A DNA stretch of 64,000 bases from a phage. Under the pieces are notes generated by a model. That model saw nothing but the letters and a program-made list of their open reading frames with translations. It did not search any database and was not told the DNA's origin. The translations under genes were made by a program, and so were the position numbers. The stretch is from sequence record OZ335964.1; one strand, 5' to 3'. Shown here piece by piece: positions 14,883 to 55,603 of the stretch. Positions within the stretch are counted from its first letter, which is position 1; every line of letters starts with the position of its first letter.

Positions 14883-14911
14883 AGTATAGGGGATCGCCGA
14901 TCCCCTGTCAA
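14883..14911 (-). promoter_or_regulatory. early promoter/stem-loop cassette (variant)
   Basis: Minus strand reads TTGACA + 17-nt palindrome GGGGATCGGCGATCCCC + TATACT. Confidence 0.5.
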
Positions 14912-44082: not shown

Positions 44083-44460
44083 TTACGGGTTTACTTCGTG
44101 CTCGTTTTGAATCTTTAGCATTCTTTCGATAAATTTTTTCTCGGCTTCCTTGTCGGAAGAGTGAGTATACTTCAATCCAATGTAAGCTGTCAAGTATTGT
44201 TGCAGAGCATAGACAGTAACAGGATTCTTTGCGGTCTTTTTGCCGTCGAGATATACCAGATCACCACGAACATCAAACGCAAGTTTACGACGAATTACAT
44301 CATCAACAAATTTATCTAGGACAAAATACCACTCAATACATTCTATCCCGTGACGGTAGTTCATTACATCATTATCTTTGATATAGTCAAACGGAATATG
44401 ACATAATTTACGATTTTGTAGGATGAATAGCATTTGTTCTTTTAAGCCCATACGTTTCAT
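44083..44460 (-). CDS. hypothetical protein at the rpbA position (possible RNA polymerase-binding protein)
   Basis: Immediately upstream of gene 45; start placed at M8 after the upstream stop; identity by synteny only. Confidence 0.4.
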   Translation of the reverse strand: MKRMGLKEQMLFILQNRKLCHIPFDYIKDNDVMNYRHGIECIEWYFVLDKFVDDVIRRKLAFDVRGDLVYLDGKKTAKNPVTVYALQQYLTAYIGLKYTHSSDKEAEKKFIERMLKIQNEHEVNP

Positions 44461-44464
44461 TCTA

Positions 44465-44842
44465 TCACTTCCCATCAGCAATTGCGATCAGACGAGTTAC
44501 TACTACGCTAGCGGCTTCAATCAGCAGTTCATCGGTGTCAATCTGATAACCCTTTTCGAGAATATCTTTACCACGAATAGTTTTAGCGCCTTTAGCAATT
44601 GAATCATCGTAATACTTGCGCATTGCCGCGATCCATTCTTTTTGCACCATATCATCAATATGCGCATACAGTTCAAAGCGTGCTTGCTGCGGGATAACCT
44701 TCATTTTAGCTTTCTCACTTTCCGGCATTTGCAGTACCCACGCTTTACGGATCTTGTTCATTGCTCGGTCAAATTCGAGGCTGGTTTTCTTGTTCTGAAT
44801 GTCTGCTACAGTAATTTTAGCCAGGTTTGCGGAAGTAGTCAT
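44465..44842 (-). CDS. hypothetical protein (125 aa)
   Basis: Track ORF starts at TTG; M6 ATG has GGAGA SD. Confidence 0.45.
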   Translation of the reverse strand: MTTSANLAKITVADIQNKKTSLEFDRAMNKIRKAWVLQMPESEKAKMKVIPQQARFELYAHIDDMVQKEWIAAMRKYYDDSIAKGAKTIRGKDILEKGYQIDTDELLIEAASVVVTRLIAIADGK

Positions 44843-44872: not shown

Positions 44873-45103
44873 TCACGTTCTAAAGTTTGTTGCAACCCCA
44901 GCATCAGGGTAATCAAGTTTATCAAAGTTGGGGACCAGCATAAACTCATGATGACGACAAGACAACATTTTTGTTATGTCTTCATCGCTGTATATGCTGT
45001 TTTTCATATCCCCCATACTAACTACATATTCTTCACCGGAATATAGATTGATTAATGTATACAATTCTAACTCCGGCTGCGTTACTCTGTCAAATGTTAA
45101 CAT
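44873..45103 (-). CDS. hypothetical protein (76 aa)
   Basis: Track ORF; weak SD; overlaps the gp46 3' end by 14 nt. Confidence 0.4.
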   Translation of the reverse strand: MLTFDRVTQPELELYTLINLYSGEEYVVSMGDMKNSIYSDEDITKMLSCRHHEFMLVPNFDKLDYPDAGVATNFRT

Positions 45104-46772
45104 TCATTTCAGTGAATCGCCCACGTTTAACCATCTTGAGATGACGGCTAAAATCATCAGGGTTATGGTCACGATGGCTGATAATATACACGTTATCATC
45201 TAACTTGTCAATGATGGAATCAAGTGCTTTTACGCCTTGAACGTCGGTCGCTCCATCATAAATTTCGTCGAGTACCAACAAAGAAATATTAGTACCAGAT
45301 ACCTTACCAGCAACATCACGCCATGTAAAGAGCATCGCAAGATCAATACGTGCTTTTTCGCCTTGACTGAATGATGTATACGAAAACGATTCACGCCCCC
45401 GTGATTTGATTGTTTCGTTAAACTCTTCATCTAGCGTAAAGATATAATCTGCTTCCATGATATCAAGATAATACGCAATCCGATCATTGAAATATGGAAT
45501 ATATTTCTTGACGATAGACGCCTTAACACCGGAATCCTTCAACATTTCTGTTACAAATCCACGATGATATTTTTCAAGAACTAGCTTTGATTTTTCATTA
45601 GTAATCTCTACCAGTTCGTGTTCCAGTTTAGCAAGTTCTTCGGAATTGTCAACCCTTTCTTTTTGTAATTCCTGAATTGCTTTCTGGATCTGTTTAGCAC
45701 GACCTACAGATGCCGTTAAATTCGCTCTCTGTGACTCTATAGCGCGTTTAATTTCCAAGACCTTAGTTTGTGCTGTCTGGAAAGAATTGGCTTTCTCTGC
45801 GTATTCTACGCGTTTCTCGTCAATAAGAGACAGTTTATGTTCCGCTTGTGCTTTTTGTTCGCGTACAGCCTGATCATTACCCTGAATGATCGGTTGTGTG
45901 CACGTCGGGCAGACCCCGCCTTTCTCGTGCATATGGATAACACGATCAAAGTTCTGGATCTGTGCACCAATCTGTGCGATAGCCGTATTAATTTTAGCCA
46001 ATGCCGCGCTAGGATCTTCCGGCATAACAACAGCCAATAGCTCATCGGTCAAGCGCGTTTCTTCGGCTTTGAATGCTTTAGCCGATTCTACCTCTTTATC
46101 ATACATATTCTGCAAACGCTGTAGATTCTCGGCACTCGCCTTGCTAGCGTCTTCTATGTACTTTTTATGAGTGTTGATTTGTTGCTGAACGTGATTAGCT
46201 TTCATTTCCTGCATTTGGATATTCTGGGTAATCTCGCGCACATACGCTTTATTCAGTTTATCCATTTCGCCTAGCGTAGCAATATCAAGCAAATCCTCGA
46301 CCAGTTTACGGCGACCCGCTGCCGGAAGACTCATAAACGGAACATAACCAGCAGTACCTAAAACAACGATCTGTTTAAAGCTGGCTAGGTTCATGCCTAT
46401 GATACCTTCAAAATATTCCTGAAAGTCTTTGGTGCTTGCGCTCTCGTCGATCTTTTGACCGTCGCGATGCACTTCGAATACTTCCGGTTTTTGACCACGT
46501 TTGATATAAAACTCTTTCCCGTCCAGTTCAAACCAGACTTCGACTAACAGTTTCTTTTTGTTGACGCTGTTAATCAATTGGCCTTTCTTGATACTACGAA
46601 ACGGTTTACCGAACAACACAAAGCAAAGAGCCTCGATCATGGTCGATTTACCAGCACCGTTAACACCAGTGATTAGTGTCTTTTTGAATCCGTCTAGCTG
46701 AATCTCAACAGGTTCAGCACCCACGCTCATTATATTTTGATAGCGCAAGGTTTTAAAATTTAACTTTGCCAT
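45090..46772 (-). CDS. 46: recombination endonuclease subunit gp46 (SbcC/Rad50-like ATPase)
   Basis: Walker A GVNGAGKST, long coiled-coil middle, C-terminal Walker B LLVLDE; start set to M6 with GGAGTGG SD (560 aa). Confidence 0.85.
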   Translation of the reverse strand: MAKLNFKTLRYQNIMSVGAEPVEIQLDGFKKTLITGVNGAGKSTMIEALCFVLFGKPFRSIKKGQLINSVNKKKLLVEVWFELDGKEFYIKRGQKPEVFEVHRDGQKIDESASTKDFQEYFEGIIGMNLASFKQIVVLGTAGYVPFMSLPAAGRRKLVEDLLDIATLGEMDKLNKAYVREITQNIQMQEMKANHVQQQINTHKKYIEDASKASAENLQRLQNMYDKEVESAKAFKAEETRLTDELLAVVMPEDPSAALAKINTAIAQIGAQIQNFDRVIHMHEKGGVCPTCTQPIIQGNDQAVREQKAQAEHKLSLIDEKRVEYAEKANSFQTAQTKVLEIKRAIESQRANLTASVGRAKQIQKAIQELQKERVDNSEELAKLEHELVEITNEKSKLVLEKYHRGFVTEMLKDSGVKASIVKKYIPYFNDRIAYYLDIMEADYIFTLDEEFNETIKSRGRESFSYTSFSQGEKARIDLAMLFTWRDVAGKVSGTNISLLVLDEIYDGATDVQGVKALDSIIDKLDDNVYIISHRDHNPDDFSRHLKMVKRGRFTEMNVNI

Positions 46773-47016
46773 TAATCCACTCCGCAATCACACATTCCAT
46801 AATATTAAATGCTAACACATCTTCATCAATGTTGTAAACACTTGCTGCCTTCACTTTAACTAATGTGTCTCTGCGATCTGGCAGCATGATCACATAATCC
46901 AGTGTCGCCGGATCATATGTCATAAAGGGATCAATGTAAATCCCTTTATTCAATGCCAGATATTCGCGAAGACCTTCTATAACCCTGTGTCTAAGGTAGG
47001 TCATCGATAGAATCAT
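46753..47016 (-). CDS. hypothetical protein (87 aa)
   Basis: ATGA overlap with upstream ORF; lies between genes 47 and 46. Confidence 0.45.
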   Translation of the reverse strand: MILSMTYLRHRVIEGLREYLALNKGIYIDPFMTYDPATLDYVIMLPDRRDTLVKVKAASVYNIDEDVLAFNIMECVIAEWINGKVKF

Positions 47017-47609
47017 TTTAGTTTATGTTCCTCTAAAAATTCTTCAATTTCACCTTGCAGGTCTTCCGCTTGTTGTTCCAGAATATCGCGAAATTCACCT
47101 ACAGTCAAGCGATAATCACACTTCACCAGTCGATGTGGGAGAATATACCCTTTATACATCGTCTCTGACGCTTCCAGGAATACCCCACTATGCATGACAG
47201 AGATCCAACCTGTTAGCGTCAATGGAGTATTCGGAAAATAATACTTGCTGGATTGTTTCCACTGGACGAAAGCACCATATACAATCGGATTATATTCACC
47301 AACCACACTCTTAATAATGGCTTCTACTTTGTCTTTTACAAATACGCCAATGTCCATAGTTACCATCAAATCCTGTGGATGAATCACTTTAAGGTAACGA
47401 CGATAACCGTCATCATACCACATCTTAACCACTGGCTGACCCCACATTTTAGCAATACGCGCTTTCAGATAGCCATAGATCGGATTCTTGCAATGTGATT
47501 GTTTTAGTGTGTATGTGTGCACCAATTCAATAAAATGTTCCATTACCAGCGAATCAGAATCAGCCGCGACCATAGTCGTATTCATAATATGTTCCTCGTT
47601 CAATTTCAT
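47013..47609 (-). CDS. hypothetical protein (198 aa)
   Basis: Track ORF; no recognised motif. Confidence 0.5.
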   Translation of the reverse strand: MKLNEEHIMNTTMVAADSDSLVMEHFIELVHTYTLKQSHCKNPIYGYLKARIAKMWGQPVVKMWYDDGYRRYLKVIHPQDLMVTMDIGVFVKDKVEAIIKSVVGEYNPIVYGAFVQWKQSSKYYFPNTPLTLTGWISVMHSGVFLEASETMYKGYILPHRLVKCDYRLTVGEFRDILEQQAEDLQGEIEEFLEEHKLK

Positions 47610-47877
47610 ATTGTTTCAGGTCTTCTAAAAGCTCATCCATTGCTTGTTTCAGCGTATGACGTAGCGTAAAGTAATAGCTTTCATCAAATTCTATTTCTGC
47701 GCGAGGGATAGAGCGAAACTTACACTTAACGGTAGTATCAGTGAGTCGCTTTTCGACCATCATCCGAACTTCTTCATGCTCTTTGGAATACCATACATCA
47801 ACGGAGATCCCCTTACGTCGAGCAAACATAGGCAAAGCTGCATTAAATTCTACTACTTTTTGTGCAAGTGTTTTCAT
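47560..47877 (-). CDS. hypothetical protein (105 aa)
   Basis: Track ORF trimmed to M10. Confidence 0.45.
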   Translation of the reverse strand: MKTLAQKVVEFNAALPMFARRKGISVDVWYSKEHEEVRMMVEKRLTDTTVKCKFRSIPRAEIEFDESYYFTLRHTLKQAMDELLEDLKQYEIERGTYYEYDYGRG

Positions 47878-47878
47878 T

Positions 47879-48124
47879 TTACATACTCCACGATTCACGG
47901 GCAATCACATTCTGGGTAATATCAGCAATCTTACGGGATACGATGTTTGTTAGCCCCTCTTTGGTGATATTTTCACGATCAAATGGGATTTCGTCATGAG
48001 TCCATAACCCAGAGTTAGACCGAAATGATAGCATATACTGACCATCTCGCACAACCTCAAATACATGGATCTTTGTGAACTTCGCTAAACCTTCGTTGAT
48101 TTCTTTCAGTGCATTAGTAATCAT
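47879..48124 (-). CDS. hypothetical protein (81 aa)
   Basis: Track ORF starts at TTG; M5 ATG has GGAGG SD. Confidence 0.45.
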   Translation of the reverse strand: MITNALKEINEGLAKFTKIHVFEVVRDGQYMLSFRSNSGLWTHDEIPFDRENITKEGLTNIVSRKIADITQNVIARESWSM

Positions 48125-48150
48125 AACAACCTCCAATCAATTTTTTAGAG

Positions 48151-48179
48151 AGTATAACGGGGATTTCTCCCCGCGTCAA
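48151..48179 (-). promoter_or_regulatory. early promoter/stem-loop cassette (variant)
   Basis: Minus strand reads TTGACG + CGGGGAGAAATCCCCG hairpin + TATACT, directly after the gp47 stop. Confidence 0.5.
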
Positions 48180-49205
48180 CTAACTTTTTGCGCTATTTAC
48201 TTCGGCTAAAAGTTCATCAGAAATACGCTTGACCGCCGCAAGTTCTTCTGGTTCTAGGTTTTGTTCTTCCAGATATTCATAGACCATCTGAATAGTGCTT
48301 TTAACTTCAATAACACCTGTTTCCTGTGATGCGCTACTCTCCAGCTTATGGACCACTTTTAGCTTGTGCACAACGGCCTCTAACGCGCTTTCTAACTTAG
48401 TTAACCCATTATCAGCGACCGTTGCGATAAGACGCACACTAAGCCCCTTAAAGCGTTCTACATCGATTTTATCATCTGACGGGTAAGTAATACGCACATG
48501 ATAAGTTTTGTCATTCTGAATAAACTCTTTTTTGTGTGTATCGGTATCGAATACCCAAAAACCACGCGGATCGTTTTCGTCACCCGCCGTTAGTGTGTAT
48601 GGTGTACCAATATATGTTACGTTACCGCCATCGCTGATAGTATGAAAGTGACCGGAAAACACTTCACGGTATTTCTTGAGGAAGTCCGCGCTATAACCTT
48701 CGGATTTTAGCCCTTTATAGAAATAGTAACCGGACAATTCCCAATGGCCTACACAATATTCGCTGAATGAGTTTTGAATAAACTCTAAAATCTCTGATTT
48801 ATTGTCATCACAAAACCACGGGAACAGATCAAATGATACACCATCAAAGGTAACTGTTTCCGGCTTATCAATGACCTTAATGCAATCATACTGGCTTAAC
48901 ACTTCACGCGGTGCGTTAGGCTGGATCTTATTGCGCTTAAACATATCATGATTCCCGACCGTGATATAACAAGTAATACCAGCCTCTTCCAGTAACGGGA
49001 TGACCTTAGTACGGTTAAATTTCATGGTTTCATGAGTAATTGCTTTTCGGCAATCAAACCAATCCCCTGTTTGAATCCATGTCTTAATATTATGCTCTTT
49101 GGAGTATTCAACCGCTTTCTTGATGGTATCAAGAATATACTCATGCACCCACGGATCATCGCCACCGATACCAGTATGCAGATCACCTAAAAGCAAAATT
49201 TTCAT
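48180..49205 (-). CDS. 47: recombination endonuclease subunit gp47 (Mre11-like phosphoesterase)
   Basis: Calcineurin-like phosphoesterase motifs LLLGDLH, GNHD, GHWE, GHFH; strong collinearity with T4 gp47. Confidence 0.85.
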   Translation of the reverse strand: MKILLLGDLHTGIGGDDPWVHEYILDTIKKAVEYSKEHNIKTWIQTGDWFDCRKAITHETMKFNRTKVIPLLEEAGITCYITVGNHDMFKRNKIQPNAPREVLSQYDCIKVIDKPETVTFDGVSFDLFPWFCDDNKSEILEFIQNSFSEYCVGHWELSGYYFYKGLKSEGYSADFLKKYREVFSGHFHTISDGGNVTYIGTPYTLTAGDENDPRGFWVFDTDTHKKEFIQNDKTYHVRITYPSDDKIDVERFKGLSVRLIATVADNGLTKLESALEAVVHKLKVVHKLESSASQETGVIEVKSTIQMVYEYLEEQNLEPEELAAVKRISDELLAEVNSAKS

Positions 49206-49255
49206 AGTCTCTTCCTCTCTTCGTTTTCGATGCTCTCACTATATCACAGAAAAAT

Positions 49256-49290
49256 AAAAAGGGAAACCCCTTTCGGAGTCTCCCTTATAA
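49256..49290 (-). terminator. possible terminator (weak stem, strong U-tract)
   Basis: Minus-strand short GC stems followed by TTTTTATTTTT. Confidence 0.35.
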
Positions 49291-49295
49291 AGCCA

Positions 49296-50375: not shown

Positions 50376-51845
50376 CTATTCCCCATTACCATTATACTTT
50401 CTTTGCTTAGTTATCCACACTCTAACCATTTCTACTGATTCGCCGTCAGACGGATCAAGAGTTTTTCCTTTTTTCTTCATGCGGTACTTAAATCCGTTAA
50501 ATCTTGCATTCTCTTGCTCGTTAAAGTCGAACATCTTTTTAAATGATTTTCGCCCTTTACGCTCACCACATTCTAGCGGAATCATTCGGTCTGTTATTAC
50601 ATTGGCATTAGGTAGAAACGTTTTTAGATAATCCACCAACGCCCAATCAGGAACATATAGATTAACATTCTCCTTGCTCTCGTTGTCTCTCAGGTTACAA
50701 CGCAAACATAATTGAAATGCTGGTTCCAGATAATCAGACACATGACGCGCTTTCAAAAACTCGTTTGTCGGGAGATCACAACTATTAGCAAGACCTTTTA
50801 AAATATCAATCTCCCATCGTTGAGGGTTAAAGCTGAACATCACAGCAACATTTTTATGATGAATGTAAGAGTTAAGACCATAAGATCCGTAAGGTATCCG
50901 CTCACCAATACCATTTGTGCACGCTTCTCGGTCCCGATTCACGGTATAAATGAAGTCATCACCACATTCATTTTTAACCATATCAACAAGACGTTCAAAG
51001 GTATTGTTTGTTTCTGACTGGTGACGCGACCATCGTTCAGAGTCCGTCATAAGGATGATGTTAACTCTATCTGTATTTTTATACTCTTTGAAATATAGTC
51101 TGGATTCTAGCGCACTCGGAACAAAATCGCAATTTGCATAGTATCGTAGATACTTCCCACTATATGTATCAAAGAGATTTGCACATGCTATCGTAACCTT
51201 TTTAAAGTCTCCCCACGTACCGTGTTTGTTATCGTTCAAGAAAACAATTTTCGACCCATTCTTCCGGTGTCCTTCGTTATGTTTTACCATAACGTTGATT
51301 TTCTTCTCTAATAACGCCTCATAAAGCCCTCTAAGCGAAGAATCGATCATATCAGTACCATCCTTCGCACTTTCTATCTTTTCTTTGATAGCGGACTTCT
51401 CAGAGTCTTTTAGAACTAAGTTCTGTAGGCATTCCGATTCGTCGGCGATTGGTTCGCAATGCTTCGTGATAAGTTCAAGATTAGACTTAAACGGATACTC
51501 ATTAAATTCAACCAGTTGAGGAACTTCATCAATGTAAAGAGCATAATCACCAAACATTTTTGAACGTTCCATATTAGATAACGCTGTATGTGTAATGAAT
51601 ATCACATCAGCACCGTCTTTAACTGATTGCATTATCGACGCTTGCACTGTCTTAAGGCTTCTTAGTCGTGTGCTATCAATCAAGACAGCACGACCGCCCA
51701 TTCTTTTAAACTTATTGTAAGATTGTTCACTTAAAACACGAGATGGCGAAGCAATAACCGCTTTTTCTTTTGTCTCTAGGACGTGGGAAAGTATAGCATC
51801 AGTTTTCCCCGCCGCTGGCAATGCGATTAATGTTTCAATCTTCAT
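50376..51845 (-). CDS. P-loop NTPase of unknown function (489 aa)
   Basis: N-terminal Walker A ALPAAGKTDA (residues 9-18) and Walker B ALYIDEV (~110); Cys-rich C-terminal half; no T4 counterpart recognised at this position. Confidence 0.6.
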   Translation of the reverse strand: MKIETLIALPAAGKTDAILSHVLETKEKAVIASPSRVLSEQSYNKFKRMGGRAVLIDSTRLRSLKTVQASIMQSVKDGADVIFITHTALSNMERSKMFGDYALYIDEVPQLVEFNEYPFKSNLELITKHCEPIADESECLQNLVLKDSEKSAIKEKIESAKDGTDMIDSSLRGLYEALLEKKINVMVKHNEGHRKNGSKIVFLNDNKHGTWGDFKKVTIACANLFDTYSGKYLRYYANCDFVPSALESRLYFKEYKNTDRVNIILMTDSERWSRHQSETNNTFERLVDMVKNECGDDFIYTVNRDREACTNGIGERIPYGSYGLNSYIHHKNVAVMFSFNPQRWEIDILKGLANSCDLPTNEFLKARHVSDYLEPAFQLCLRCNLRDNESKENVNLYVPDWALVDYLKTFLPNANVITDRMIPLECGERKGRKSFKKMFDFNEQENARFNGFKYRMKKKGKTLDPSDGESVEMVRVWITKQRKYNGNGE

Positions 51846-55574: not shown

Positions 55575-55603
55575 AGTATAGGGGATCTCGCGATCCCCGT
55601 CAA
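55575..55603 (-). promoter_or_regulatory. early promoter/stem-loop cassette (variant)
   Basis: Minus strand reads TTGACG + GGGGATCGCGAGATCCCC palindrome + TATACT. Confidence 0.5.

What the first reader, a model, noticed from the sequence alone, without database searches (positions are those of the whole stretch)
46753..48179. Four-gene insertion between recombination genes 47 and 46
gp47 (48180-49205) and gp46 (45090-46772) are adjacent in T4 as I recall it, but here they are separated by four ORFs of 81-198 aa with no recognisable motifs, the first driven by its own promoter cassette. Because gp46/gp47 is the phage Mre11-Rad50 analogue, modulators of end-processing or anti-nuclease factors are plausible cargo.
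Basis: partly seen in the sequence, partly recalled or inferred. Interest (0 to 1): 0.5.

Follow-up and report, generated by a model that had tools for sequence, protein, structure and literature searches.

The report
Early orphan-gene cassette between genes 47/46
Between the two subunits of the phage's Mre11/Rad50-type nuclease lies a promoter-headed block of four small genes of unknown function; it is real and conserved in all RB49-like coliphages, but it is an ordinary example of the variable "orphan gene" slots already described in T4-type phages.

Summary
On the minus strand, gene 47 (48180-49205) and gene 46 (45090-46772) are separated by a sigma70-type promoter with a G/C hairpin in its spacer (48151-48179) and four tightly packed ORFs: D (81 aa), C (105 aa), B (190 aa, not 198) and A (87 aa). 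The window is a Krischvirus (RB49-like phage). All four ORFs are present once in all 59 Krischvirus genomes held and are under purifying selection (dN/dS 0.06-0.24).

Across T4-type phages this slot holds about 0 to 1.4 kb of unrelated cargo. The promoter cassette matches the published PeSL (promoter-early stem-loop) elements that head orphan genes in RB49.

Two diverged metagenomic relatives keep the same order of genes in the slot. Their versions of C and B are 37-49% identical to those here. D is replaced or unrecognisable. A is absent in one relative and only weakly similar in the other.

No sequence family, defence model or solved structure matches any of the four proteins. ORF C gives a confident alpha-beta3-alpha model with only fold-level likeness to type III secretion chaperones. 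There is no evidence for or against a role in end-processing. Verdict: a real cassette of an already known kind, function unknown, low to moderate interest.

The parts
48180..49205 (-). Gene 47 (SbcD/Mre11-like nuclease subunit), upstream boundary of the slot
   Evidence: Pfam Metallophos E 2e-10; phrog_100 E 2e-124. Annotated gp47 in RB49.
48151..48179 (-). PeSL-type early promoter: -35 TTGACG (48179-48174), 17-nt spacer holding the hairpin GCGGGGA-GAAA-TCCCCGT (about 48174-48157), -10 TATACT (48156-48151)
   Evidence: Conserved in 8 loci, with a compensatory C-G to G-C change of the outer stem pair in L016. Same architecture at 14883-14911 and 55575-55603. Matches the PeSL description in PMC2839356. 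Annotated as a promoter in phage GEC-3S.
48130..48134 (-). Shine-Dalgarno GGAGG of ORF D, 5 nt before its ATG
   Evidence: Read directly from the sequence.
47879..48124 (-). ORF D, 81 aa (= RB49ORF038c); the most replaceable member
   Evidence: phrog_15867, unknown function. dN/dS 0.24. Two allele classes: 13 of 59 records are only 60-80% identical. Positional counterparts in L016 and L023 show no significant similarity to it.
47560..47877 (-). ORF C, 105 aa (= RB49ORF037c); predicted alpha-beta3-alpha protein with an invariant, low-confidence C-terminal tail YDYGRG
47013..47585 (-). ORF B, 190 aa (= RB49ORF036c; 198 aa if read from the ATG at 47609). It has two domains: a variable N-terminal half and a near-invariant C-terminal half with the motif G-x-FLEAS-x-T-x-Y-x-G-x-ILP-x-R and an acidic terminal helix. 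Its start overlaps the end of ORF C by 26 nt.
   Evidence: phrog_16328. dN/dS 0.35 (residues 1-95) against 0.04 (residues 96-190). An exhaustive HMMER search finds only two distant relatives, P0012 and P0013. It is split into two ORFs at the domain boundary in L023. The AF2 single-sequence model was unusable, pLDDT 39.
46753..47016 (-). ORF A, 87 aa (= RB49ORF035c). Its ATG overlaps the stop of ORF B (ATGA), and its last 20 nt overlap the start of gene 46 and carry that gene's Shine-Dalgarno (GGAG).
   Evidence: phrog_14972. dN/dS 0.06. Absent in L016. A partial copy in L023 is weakly related: 24-27% identity, and E 0.006 against phrog_14972. Junctions.
45090..46772 (-). Gene 46 (SbcC/Rad50-like ATPase subunit), downstream boundary. 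No terminator-like site lies between the promoter and the start of this gene.
   Evidence: Pfam AAA_23/SMC_N; phrog_77 E 2e-179. Terminator scan.

Best explanation
The region is a lineage-specific cassette of early accessory ('orphan') genes. It is headed by a PeSL (promoter-early stem-loop) element and sits in a slot between genes 47 and 46 that varies across T4-type phages.

Shown here:
- A near-consensus sigma70 promoter with a G/C hairpin in its spacer follows the stop codon of gene 47.
- Four real protein-coding genes follow it with no gaps. D and C are 1 nt apart, C and B overlap by 26 nt, B and A share an ATGA, and A overlaps gene 46 by 20 nt.
- No terminator-like site lies between the promoter and the start of gene 46.

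Inferred:
- Right after infection, host RNA polymerase starts at the PeSL and makes one D-C-B-A-46 messenger.
- The hairpin attenuates read-through from gene 47, so the cassette promoter also supplies early expression of gene 46.
- The close packing couples translation of successive genes.
- The products are small, soluble, mildly acidic cytoplasmic proteins with no detectable enzyme signature.

C and B form the persistent core of the cassette: they are co-conserved and overlapping in three lineages. C is predicted as a small alpha-beta3-alpha protein with a fold-level likeness to type III secretion chaperones, plus an invariant C-terminal tail under protein-level constraint. This points to a protein-binding adaptor. 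B has a variable N-terminal domain and an invariant C-terminal domain, which may carry specificity and activity respectively.

I think the most likely role is a non-essential host-directed one (host take-over or counter-defence by protein-protein binding), rather than a dedicated subunit of the gp46/gp47 nuclease. Diversity inside the cassette arises by recombinational allele and module replacement, as described for PeSL cassettes.
For: Identity of the window and of the ORFs.

Promoter and hairpin. The element is conserved, with a compensatory stem change. Two sister copies lie elsewhere in the window, and all 27 strong sigma70-type sites are on the coding strand. The PeSL definition and its experimentally shown promoter and terminator activity in RB49/phi1 are in PMC2839356. 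Novel ORFs of RB49 are typically early, co-directional and compositionally like their flanks (PMC1524935).

Coding and purifying selection.

Fixed in the genus.

Same gene order in diverged lineages, where the flanking gp47 and gp46 are 81-89% identical but the cargo only 24-49%.

Mosaic alleles inside the cassette (D: 13 of 59 records at 60-80% identity; C of phage Brandy at 84.5%), although in the two such loci examined (Brandy, Makalu_003) genes 47 and 46 are 96-98% identical at the nucleotide level.

The slot varies across T4-type phages and holds unrelated cargo.

ORF C model and fold matches. The constraint lies on the tail of C and not on the overlapping start of B.

No composition anomaly. 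No flanking repeats. No RNA family or tRNA.
Against: Nothing measures function. Transcription from this particular promoter was not tested, and its hairpin did not meet the terminator scan's T-run criterion.

The translational coupling of ORF A to gene 46 and the genus-wide fixation are also what a true gp46/47 accessory factor would show.

Arbiol et al. used g46 as a control 'lacking flanking PeSL motifs'. Only one PeSL bounds the block here, so mobility of this cassette as a unit is not shown.
Confidence: 0.6

Rival explanations
1. One reading: the four proteins are lineage-specific partners or modulators of the gp46/gp47 (Rad50/Mre11-like) nuclease, or they protect phage DNA ends from host nucleases. 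They sit between the two subunit genes so that they are made together with them.
Against: The same slot is empty in Karamvirus AS6 and Aeromonas phage 31. In T4, KP15, Ac42 and the Acinetobacter phages it holds unrelated ORFs, a homing endonuclease or a phosphoesterase. The nuclease therefore needs no such partner, and the slot is not functionally dedicated. The L016 lineage, with 88-89% identical gp46/gp47, lacks ORF A and has an unrelated gene in place of D. The cargo has diverged or been replaced far more than the nuclease genes. In T4-type phages, orphan ORFs are inserted wherever early promoters lie between conserved genes (PMC1524935). The DR_1245 and PprA matches rank below generic chaperone-fold matches.
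Confidence: 0.12
2. ORF C and ORF B form a self-contained two-protein unit: a chaperone-like or antidote-like small protein (C) that binds and controls a potentially harmful effector (B). D and A would be unrelated passengers.
For: C and B are the only pair kept in all three lineages, always adjacent, with the start of B inside the conserved tail of C. C has a secretion-chaperone-like fold. B has a highly conserved C-terminal domain with an invariant motif. Nolan et al. note that regions of novel ORFs were under-represented in plasmid libraries and suggest that some are deleterious to the host in high-copy plasmids (PMC1524935).
Against: No similarity to any toxin, antitoxin or effector family. 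The chaperone likeness is only at fold level and partial. Co-conservation and overlap are also expected for any two co-functioning genes.
Confidence: 0.15
3. The block is a recently acquired selfish or mobile insertion, such as a homing cassette or a transposed module.
For: Homing endonuclease genes do occupy this slot or the neighbouring one in some relatives (EP01 and phi5; RB49ORF040c). PeSL elements can mediate excision as mini-circles (PMC2839356).
Against: No nuclease, integrase or transposase domain. No flanking direct or inverted repeats. G+C content equals that of the flanks. The block is present in every Krischvirus and in diverged sister lineages. Only one PeSL bounds it.
Confidence: 0.03
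4. Some of the ORFs are not genes but chance reading frames in a long leader of gene 46.
For: The proteins are small and have no database family of known function.
Against: dN/dS is 0.06-0.24 with pS of 0.07-0.23. All frames are intact in 8 loci, and the only length differences are two in-frame insertions or deletions and one 3'-terminal 1-nt indel. Shine-Dalgarno sites or coupled starts are present. Protein-level homologues at 24-49% identity exist in diverged lineages. ORF C folds confidently in AF2.
Confidence: 0.02

Closest known systems
PeSL (promoter-early stem-loop) plus ORFan cassettes of RB49/phi1-type phages (Arbiol et al. 2010, PMC2839356; Comeau et al. 2014, PMC4122927)
   Same: [quoted passage not shown] It starts at the stop codon of the upstream gene and is followed by a Shine-Dalgarno site and the start of an orphan ORF. 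The element is repeated in the genome, and the same phage genus is concerned.
   Different: The cassette lies inside the conserved replication/recombination module rather than in a large hyperplastic region. Only one PeSL bounds four genes, so simple PeSL x PeSL excision of the block is not evident. The block is fixed in the genus rather than differing between close relatives.
T4 genes 46.1 (Pfam DUF5487) and 46.2 (Pfam T4_Y03C), the small ORFs between genes 47 and 46 of T4
   Same: Same genomic slot and orientation, tight packing with genes 47 and 46, small soluble proteins of unknown function.
   Different: No sequence similarity to any of the four ORFs. The T4 proteins are strongly acidic (pI 4.2-4.4), against pI 5.2-6.2 here. 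T4 has two genes (443 nt), against four genes plus a promoter (1.4 kb) here. No dedicated promoter is annotated in front of T4 46.2 in the record used.
Class I type III secretion chaperones (ExsC, SycN, CesT family) and YbjN-like proteins: closest fold to ORF C
   Different: Sequence identity of 12-13% and no Pfam match. ORF C lacks the beta4-beta5-alpha3 half of the chaperone fold. No Foldseek support. A lytic coliphage has no secretion-system context. This is a likeness of fold only, not membership.
'Novel ORFs' of T4-like genomes (Nolan et al. 2006, PMC1524935)
   Same: Clustered between conserved genes, co-directional with them, preceded by early promoters, G+C like the rest of the genome, no database matches. 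RB49 was counted with 151 such ORFs.
   Different: None in kind; this is one such cluster. What is added here: the gene order persists in diverged lineages, the C-B pair is the stable core, B has two domains, and there is a confident fold for C.

Membership tests
PeSL (promoter-early stem-loop) element | Sigma70-like -35 and -10 hexamers with about 17-nt spacing | tested here: met
   TTGACG-17-TATACT, 10 of 12 matches to consensus. -35 and -10 are conserved in 8 loci.
PeSL (promoter-early stem-loop) element | Stable stem-loop, often polyG...polyC, within or next to the promoter (here between -35 and -10) | tested here: met
   7-bp stem GCGGGGA/TCCCCGT with a GAAA loop. The 76-nt context folds at -20.5 kcal/mol, z = -2.8. 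L016 carries a compensatory change in the stem.
PeSL (promoter-early stem-loop) element | Stop codon of the upstream gene in an AT-rich stretch just 5' of the -35; Shine-Dalgarno and start of a downstream ORFan at the 3' end | tested here: met
   ...GCAAAAAGTTAG|TTGACG: the TAG of gene 47 abuts the -35. GGAGG lies 5 nt before the ATG of ORF D.
PeSL (promoter-early stem-loop) element | Repeated at other intergenic sites of the same genome | tested here: met
   Same architecture at 14883-14911 (GGGGATCGGCGATCCCC) and 55575-55603 (GGGGATCGCGAGATCCCC).
PeSL (promoter-early stem-loop) element | Promoter and terminator/attenuator activity in vivo; recombination between copies | not testable with these tools
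   Shown for other PeSLs of RB49/phi1 in PMC2839356, not for this copy. The hairpin's T-tail (TTATACTC) fell short of the terminator scan's criterion.
T4 gp46.1 (DUF5487) / gp46.2 (T4_Y03C) | Match to the Pfam model above the gathering score | tested here: not met
   The T4 proteins hit their models at E 4e-49 and 6e-42. None of ORFs A-D does. Pairwise BLASTP E > 7. They belong to different PHROGs.
Class I type III secretion chaperone / YbjN-like fold (ORF C) | Complete alpha-beta3-alpha-beta2-alpha fold | tested here: inconclusive
Class I type III secretion chaperone / YbjN-like fold (ORF C) | Sequence-family membership (Pfam CesT/YbjN-type models) | tested here: not met
   No Pfam or NCBIfam hit. 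Profile search against PDB: best E 0.37.
Class I type III secretion chaperone / YbjN-like fold (ORF C) | Homodimer that binds an extended segment of a partner protein | not testable with these tools
   No complex prediction or experiment was available.
Accessory factor of an Mre11/Rad50-type nuclease | Physical or genetic interaction with gp46/gp47 | not testable with these tools
   Only positional linkage is seen. The slot's cargo is unrelated or absent in other T4-type phages.
Anti-CRISPR AcrIIC3 (ORF C) | Significant sequence similarity | tested here: not met
   Single-sequence phmmer gives E 0.026 over 37 residues. The hit disappears when the family profile is used.
Homing endonuclease / mobile cassette | Nuclease domain (HNH, GIY-YIG, LAGLIDADG) or flanking repeats | tested here: not met
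   No such domain. No flanking repeats.
Known defence-system proteins (PADLOC-DB) | Match to a PADLOC model | tested here: not met
   0 families at E <= 1 for all four ORFs. PADLOC holds defence models, not counter-defence models, so counter-defence is not excluded.

The most novel reading that the evidence does not exclude
The C-B pair, possibly with D and A, would be a previously unrecognised kind of early phage effector module. A chaperone-fold adaptor with an invariant YDYGRG tail would present or regulate a two-domain protein. That protein's fast-changing N-terminal domain would track a variable host target, for example a host nuclease or a DNA-end-sensing defence system that interferes with recombination-dependent replication. 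This would make the placement between the two nuclease subunit genes functionally meaningful.
Probability: 0.08. Interest if true: 0.6.

Novelty: already known. Interest (0 to 1): 0.22.

Why it matters
As it stands, the finding matters little. It is one more cluster of orphan early genes in a T4-type phage. It has been annotated as hypothetical proteins since the RB49 genome was released, and it is headed by a regulatory cassette described in 2010.

It is useful as a clean, small test case. Four genes are fixed across a whole genus of therapeutic-candidate coliphages, yet they are replaced or highly diverged in sister lineages. The conserved C-B pair and a confident model for C make deletion and pull-down experiments easy to design.

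If the proteins turned out to act on DNA-end processing or on a host defence, this would link an 'orphan slot' to the recombination machinery it interrupts.

Tried and rejected
1. Homology of A-D to T4 46.1/46.2, KP15_49 or Ac42p104. BLASTP with word size 2 gave nothing below E 0.05 in a nine-sequence database, and all fall in different PHROGs or in none. Rejected.

2. The four ORFs as diverged tandem paralogues. I noticed a similar helix-strands-helix pattern by eye. hhalign between the family alignments gave probabilities of 0.1-1.1%. Rejected at the sequence level.

3. ORF C as a relative of AcrIIC3 (E 0.026). The hit is lost with the family profile. Rejected as chance.

4. Wider homologue searches:
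   - The word-indexed search of 5.8 billion proteins for B, A and C found only close relatives of 83% identity or more.
   - The exhaustive HMMER search for B added just two metagenomic relatives.
   - Alignment-driven scans of metagenome and viral contigs added nothing new.
   - tblastn with the diverged homologues found only Krischvirus.

5. Structure of ORF B. The single-sequence AF2 model had pLDDT 39 and was unusable. The afdb50 fold library was unavailable.

6. Sequence search of all four ORFs and of the B and C profiles against PDB: nothing significant.

7. Rfam and tRNA scans of the region: nothing.

8. Flanking repeats that would mark a mobile element: none beyond chance-level short matches.

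9. Literature. No paper in the held library names these ORFs or their accession numbers. Searches for T4 46.1/46.2 and for Krischvirus anti-defence were uninformative. Desplats et al. 2002 (PMC135041) is not held.
Full report
**What the window is.** The 1.8-kb stretch around the finding is 96-97% identical at the nucleotide level to 59 phage records. All are RB49-like coliphages of the genus Krischvirus, family Straboviridae. In RB49 the four ORFs are annotated as the hypothetical proteins RB49ORF038c, 037c, 036c and 035c, lying between genes 47 and 46.

**Check of the observation.** All genes of the region are on the minus strand.
- Gene 47 (48180-49205) has a Metallophos domain and matches the SbcD-like PHROG. 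Gene 46 (45090-46772) has SMC_N/AAA_23 domains and matches the SbcC-like PHROG.
- The ORFs between them are D (47879-48124, 81 aa), C (47560-47877, 105 aa), B (47013-47609, 198 aa from the first ATG) and A (46753-47016, 87 aa).
- B more probably starts at 47585 (190 aa). That ATG has a GAGG 8 nt upstream. The PHROG profile begins there. The distant homologues begin M-N/T-x-T-M.
- Packing is tight. D and C are 1 nt apart. C and B overlap by 26 nt. B and A share an ATGA. A overlaps gene 46 by 20 nt and contains that gene's GGAG.

**The promoter cassette.**
- Directly after the TAG of gene 47 lies TTGACG, a 17-nt spacer, then TATACT (48179-48151). A GGAGG lies 5 nt before the ATG of D.
- The spacer forms a 7-bp G/C stem with a GAAA loop. 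The 76-nt context folds at -20.5 kcal/mol, z = -2.8, and none of 200 shuffles folds as well.
- The element is conserved in eight related loci. In the most divergent of them the outer stem pair has changed from C-G to G-C, a compensatory change.
- Two more sites in the window have the same architecture, at 14883-14911 and 55575-55603. All 27 strong sigma70-type sites of the window lie on the coding strand.

**The ORFs are genes.**
- In eight Krischvirus loci all four frames are intact. The only length differences are a 4-codon deletion in B of RB49 and GEC-3S, a 2-codon insertion in C of Brandy, and the 1-nt 3'-terminal indel in D of this window.
- The Nei-Gojobori dN/dS values are 0.24 (D), 0.18 (C), 0.24 (B) and 0.06 (A), against 0.03 for genes 47 and 46.
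- B falls into two parts. Residues 1-95 give dN/dS 0.35, and residues 96-190 give 0.04.
- tblastn finds each of the four proteins exactly once in each of the 59 Krischvirus records and in no other phage record.

In T4 itself genes 47 and 46 are separated by 46.2 (87 aa, Pfam T4_Y03C) and 46.1 (68 aa, DUF5487). Annotated regions of other genera show:
- no ORF in the slot in Karamvirus AS6 and in Aeromonas phage 31, where genes 47 and 46 overlap by 4 nt;
- one ORF in Slopekvirus KP15 (101 aa) and one in Acinetobacter phage Ac42 (73 aa).

I then ran a tblastn with gp47 and gp46 joined head to tail and subtracted the query span from the hit span. This is my own arithmetic on the coordinates, good to roughly +/-60 nt. 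The extra DNA between the two genes is:
- about 5 nt in several Klebsiella phages;
- about 17-60 nt in a Morganella phage and an Aeromonas phage;
- about 250-285 nt in SP18-type, KP15-type and Cronobacter phages;
- about 450-480 nt in T4-type phages;
- 590-980 nt in Acinetobacter phages, where a phosphoesterase gene is annotated;
- about 780 nt in Enterobacter phage phi5, with an HNH endonuclease;
- about 1320 nt in Escherichia phage EP01, with a homing endonuclease;
- 1410 nt in Krischvirus.

The junction is therefore a recurrently used insertion slot, and Krischvirus carries the largest load in this sample. The occupants in different genera are unrelated by BLASTP, and the T4, KP15 and Krischvirus occupants fall in different PHROGs, all of unknown function (Ac42's ORF matches none).

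**What the promoter cassette is.** It fits the PeSL (promoter-early stem-loop) elements described for RB49 and phi1 by Arbiol et al. (PMC2839356).
- They begin at the stop codon of the upstream gene and end with the Shine-Dalgarno and start codon of an orphan ORF.
- About 50 copies occur per genome.
- Promoter and terminator activities were shown with reporter constructs.
- They are proposed to mediate modular shuffling by recombination.
- Those authors note that a few PeSLs lie inside the conserved replication module, almost always next to genes of unknown function. This is such a case.

Nolan et al. (PMC1524935) counted 151 'novel ORFs' in RB49. They describe the same properties seen here: co-directional with the flanks, preceded by early promoters, no compositional anomaly. 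The G+C profile here is flat across the block. There are no flanking repeats. No RNA family or tRNA is present.

**How old and how stable the block is.** The exhaustive HMMER search with ORF B over 1.84 billion representative proteins found only two relatives outside the genus, P0012 and P0013. Both lie on short metagenomic contigs with the same context.
- L016. Its gp47 is 89% and its gp46 88% identical to those of the window. It reads: gene 47, a PeSL (TTGACA-CGGGGGATAGTTCCCCC-TATAAT), an 84-aa ORF unrelated to D, a 107-aa homologue of C (49% identical) and a 176-aa homologue of B (37%). There is no ORF A; a second promoter-like site with a hairpin stands in its place. Gene 46 follows.
- L023. 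Its gp47 C-terminus is 81% identical. It reads: gene 47, a PeSL almost identical to the one in the window, a 94-aa ORF with no detectable similarity to D, and a 105-aa homologue of C (46%). B is split at its domain boundary into 86-aa and 99-aa ORFs. A truncated ORF follows that is 24-27% identical to A and hits the A PHROG at E 0.006.

So the order D-C-B-A predates the genus, and C and B are the stable core. The cargo differs far more between lineages than the flanking nuclease genes do.

Within-genus dN/dS is low, so steady fast evolution explains this poorly. Replacement of alleles by recombination fits better. Mosaicism is visible inside the genus:
- D is only 60-80% identical in 13 of 59 genomes, and in the two such loci examined (Brandy, Makalu_003) genes 47 and 46 are 96-98% identical at the nucleotide level.
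- C of phage Brandy is 84.5% identical.

**What the proteins might do.**
- None of the four has a significant Pfam, NCBIfam or PADLOC match.
- Sequence and profile searches of PDB gave nothing. A marginal hit of C to AcrIIC3 vanished with the family profile.
- The proteins have pI 5.2-6.2, and none has the strongly positive GRAVY of the membrane protein T4 gp47.1 (-0.69 to +0.22 against +1.73).
- The four families are not detectable paralogues of each other.
- AlphaFold2 failed on B (pLDDT 39).
- It gave a confident model for C (pLDDT 80.9, pTM 0.70). The model has helix 4-14, strands 24-31, 36-44 and 50-58, a long helix 68-94 and a low-confidence tail.
- Foldseek found nothing significant in PDB or among viral models.
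- This is a fold-level likeness to small protein-binding adaptors, no more.
- The tail of C (Y-E/D-Y-D-Y-G-R-G) is invariant in all three lineages. Its G-R-G codons differ at third positions (GGT CGC GGC, GGA AGA GGT, GGA CGA GGT). These changes are silent in C but alter the overlapping N-terminus of B. The constraint is therefore on C's protein tail, as expected for a short binding motif.
- B has an invariant C-terminal motif, G-x-FLEAS-x-T-x-Y-x-G-x-ILP-x-R, followed by an acidic helix.

**Most likely mechanism.**
- Shown: a conserved sigma70 promoter with an embedded hairpin; four coupled genes under purifying selection; no terminator-like site before the start of gene 46.
- Inferred: early transcription by host polymerase of one D-C-B-A-46 messenger, with the hairpin damping read-through from gene 47. 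The cassette promoter would then also feed gene 46.
- Inferred with less confidence: C and B work together, with C as a binding adaptor. The set would be non-essential, host-directed early proteins rather than parts of the nuclease.

It is weakened by the empty or unrelated slots in other genera and by the loss of ORF A in a lineage with nearly the same nuclease.

**Novelty and score.**
- The arrangement is annotated in 59 public genomes. Its kind, a PeSL-headed orphan cassette in a variable slot of a T4-type genome, has been described since 2006-2010.
- New here are the persistence of the gene order in diverged lineages, the C-B core, the two-domain nature of B and a usable model of C.
- None of this reveals a function.
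- I rate the finding as already known in kind, with low to moderate interest.

Noticed in passing
window 49206-49295; L001 6611-7165; L015 2052-2606: RB49 and one metagenomic relative carry an HNH/AP2-type endonuclease gene (184 aa) between a-gt.4 and gene 47. The window lacks it and has only an intergenic terminator (12-bp stem, 49259-49286). This is a presence/absence polymorphism of a homing-type gene next to the slot.
   Followed up: partly
window 47879-47900: A 1-nt indel near the 3' end gives ORF D of this window the ending ...ARESWSM (81 aa). Seven of the eight aligned Krischvirus loci end ...ARGS-x-x-SV-R/L (83 aa), six with the coordinates of a 4-nt overlap with the start of ORF C (Brandy's C gene has extra 5' codons). 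Contigs L014 and L015 also have an 81-aa ORF D.
   Followed up: partly
L016 1800-1880: In the sister lineage that lacks ORF A, gene 46 is preceded by a second TTGACA promoter-like site and an ATCCCC...GGGGAT hairpin. This suggests module loss or exchange at a PeSL-like site.
   Followed up: partly
L023 864-1413: The ORF B homologue is split into two overlapping ORFs (86 + 99 aa) exactly at the boundary between the variable N-terminal and conserved C-terminal domains. It could be a genuine split or an assembly frameshift.
   Followed up: no
window 14883-14911 and 55575-55603 (minus strand): Two further PeSL-type promoters with a GGGGAT...ATCCCC hairpin between -35 and -10. All 27 strong sigma70-type sites in the 64-kb window are on the minus strand.
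   Followed up: partly
window 44083-44481 (minus strand): A 132-aa ORF between gene 45 and rpbA (equivalent to RB49ORF031c). In T4 these two genes are direct neighbours, so this is another small lineage-specific insert in the replication module.
   Followed up: no
window 50376-51845 (minus strand): A 489-aa ORF upstream of gene 55 (equivalent to RB49ORF044c), with only a faint DEAD-helicase hit in precomputed Pfam data. It is a large conserved gene of unknown function.
   Followed up: no
protein P0003: One ORF B homologue is recorded at NCBI as a hypothetical protein of Escherichia coli (H1Y97_004329). This is most likely a phage contig inside a bacterial assembly.
   Followed up: no
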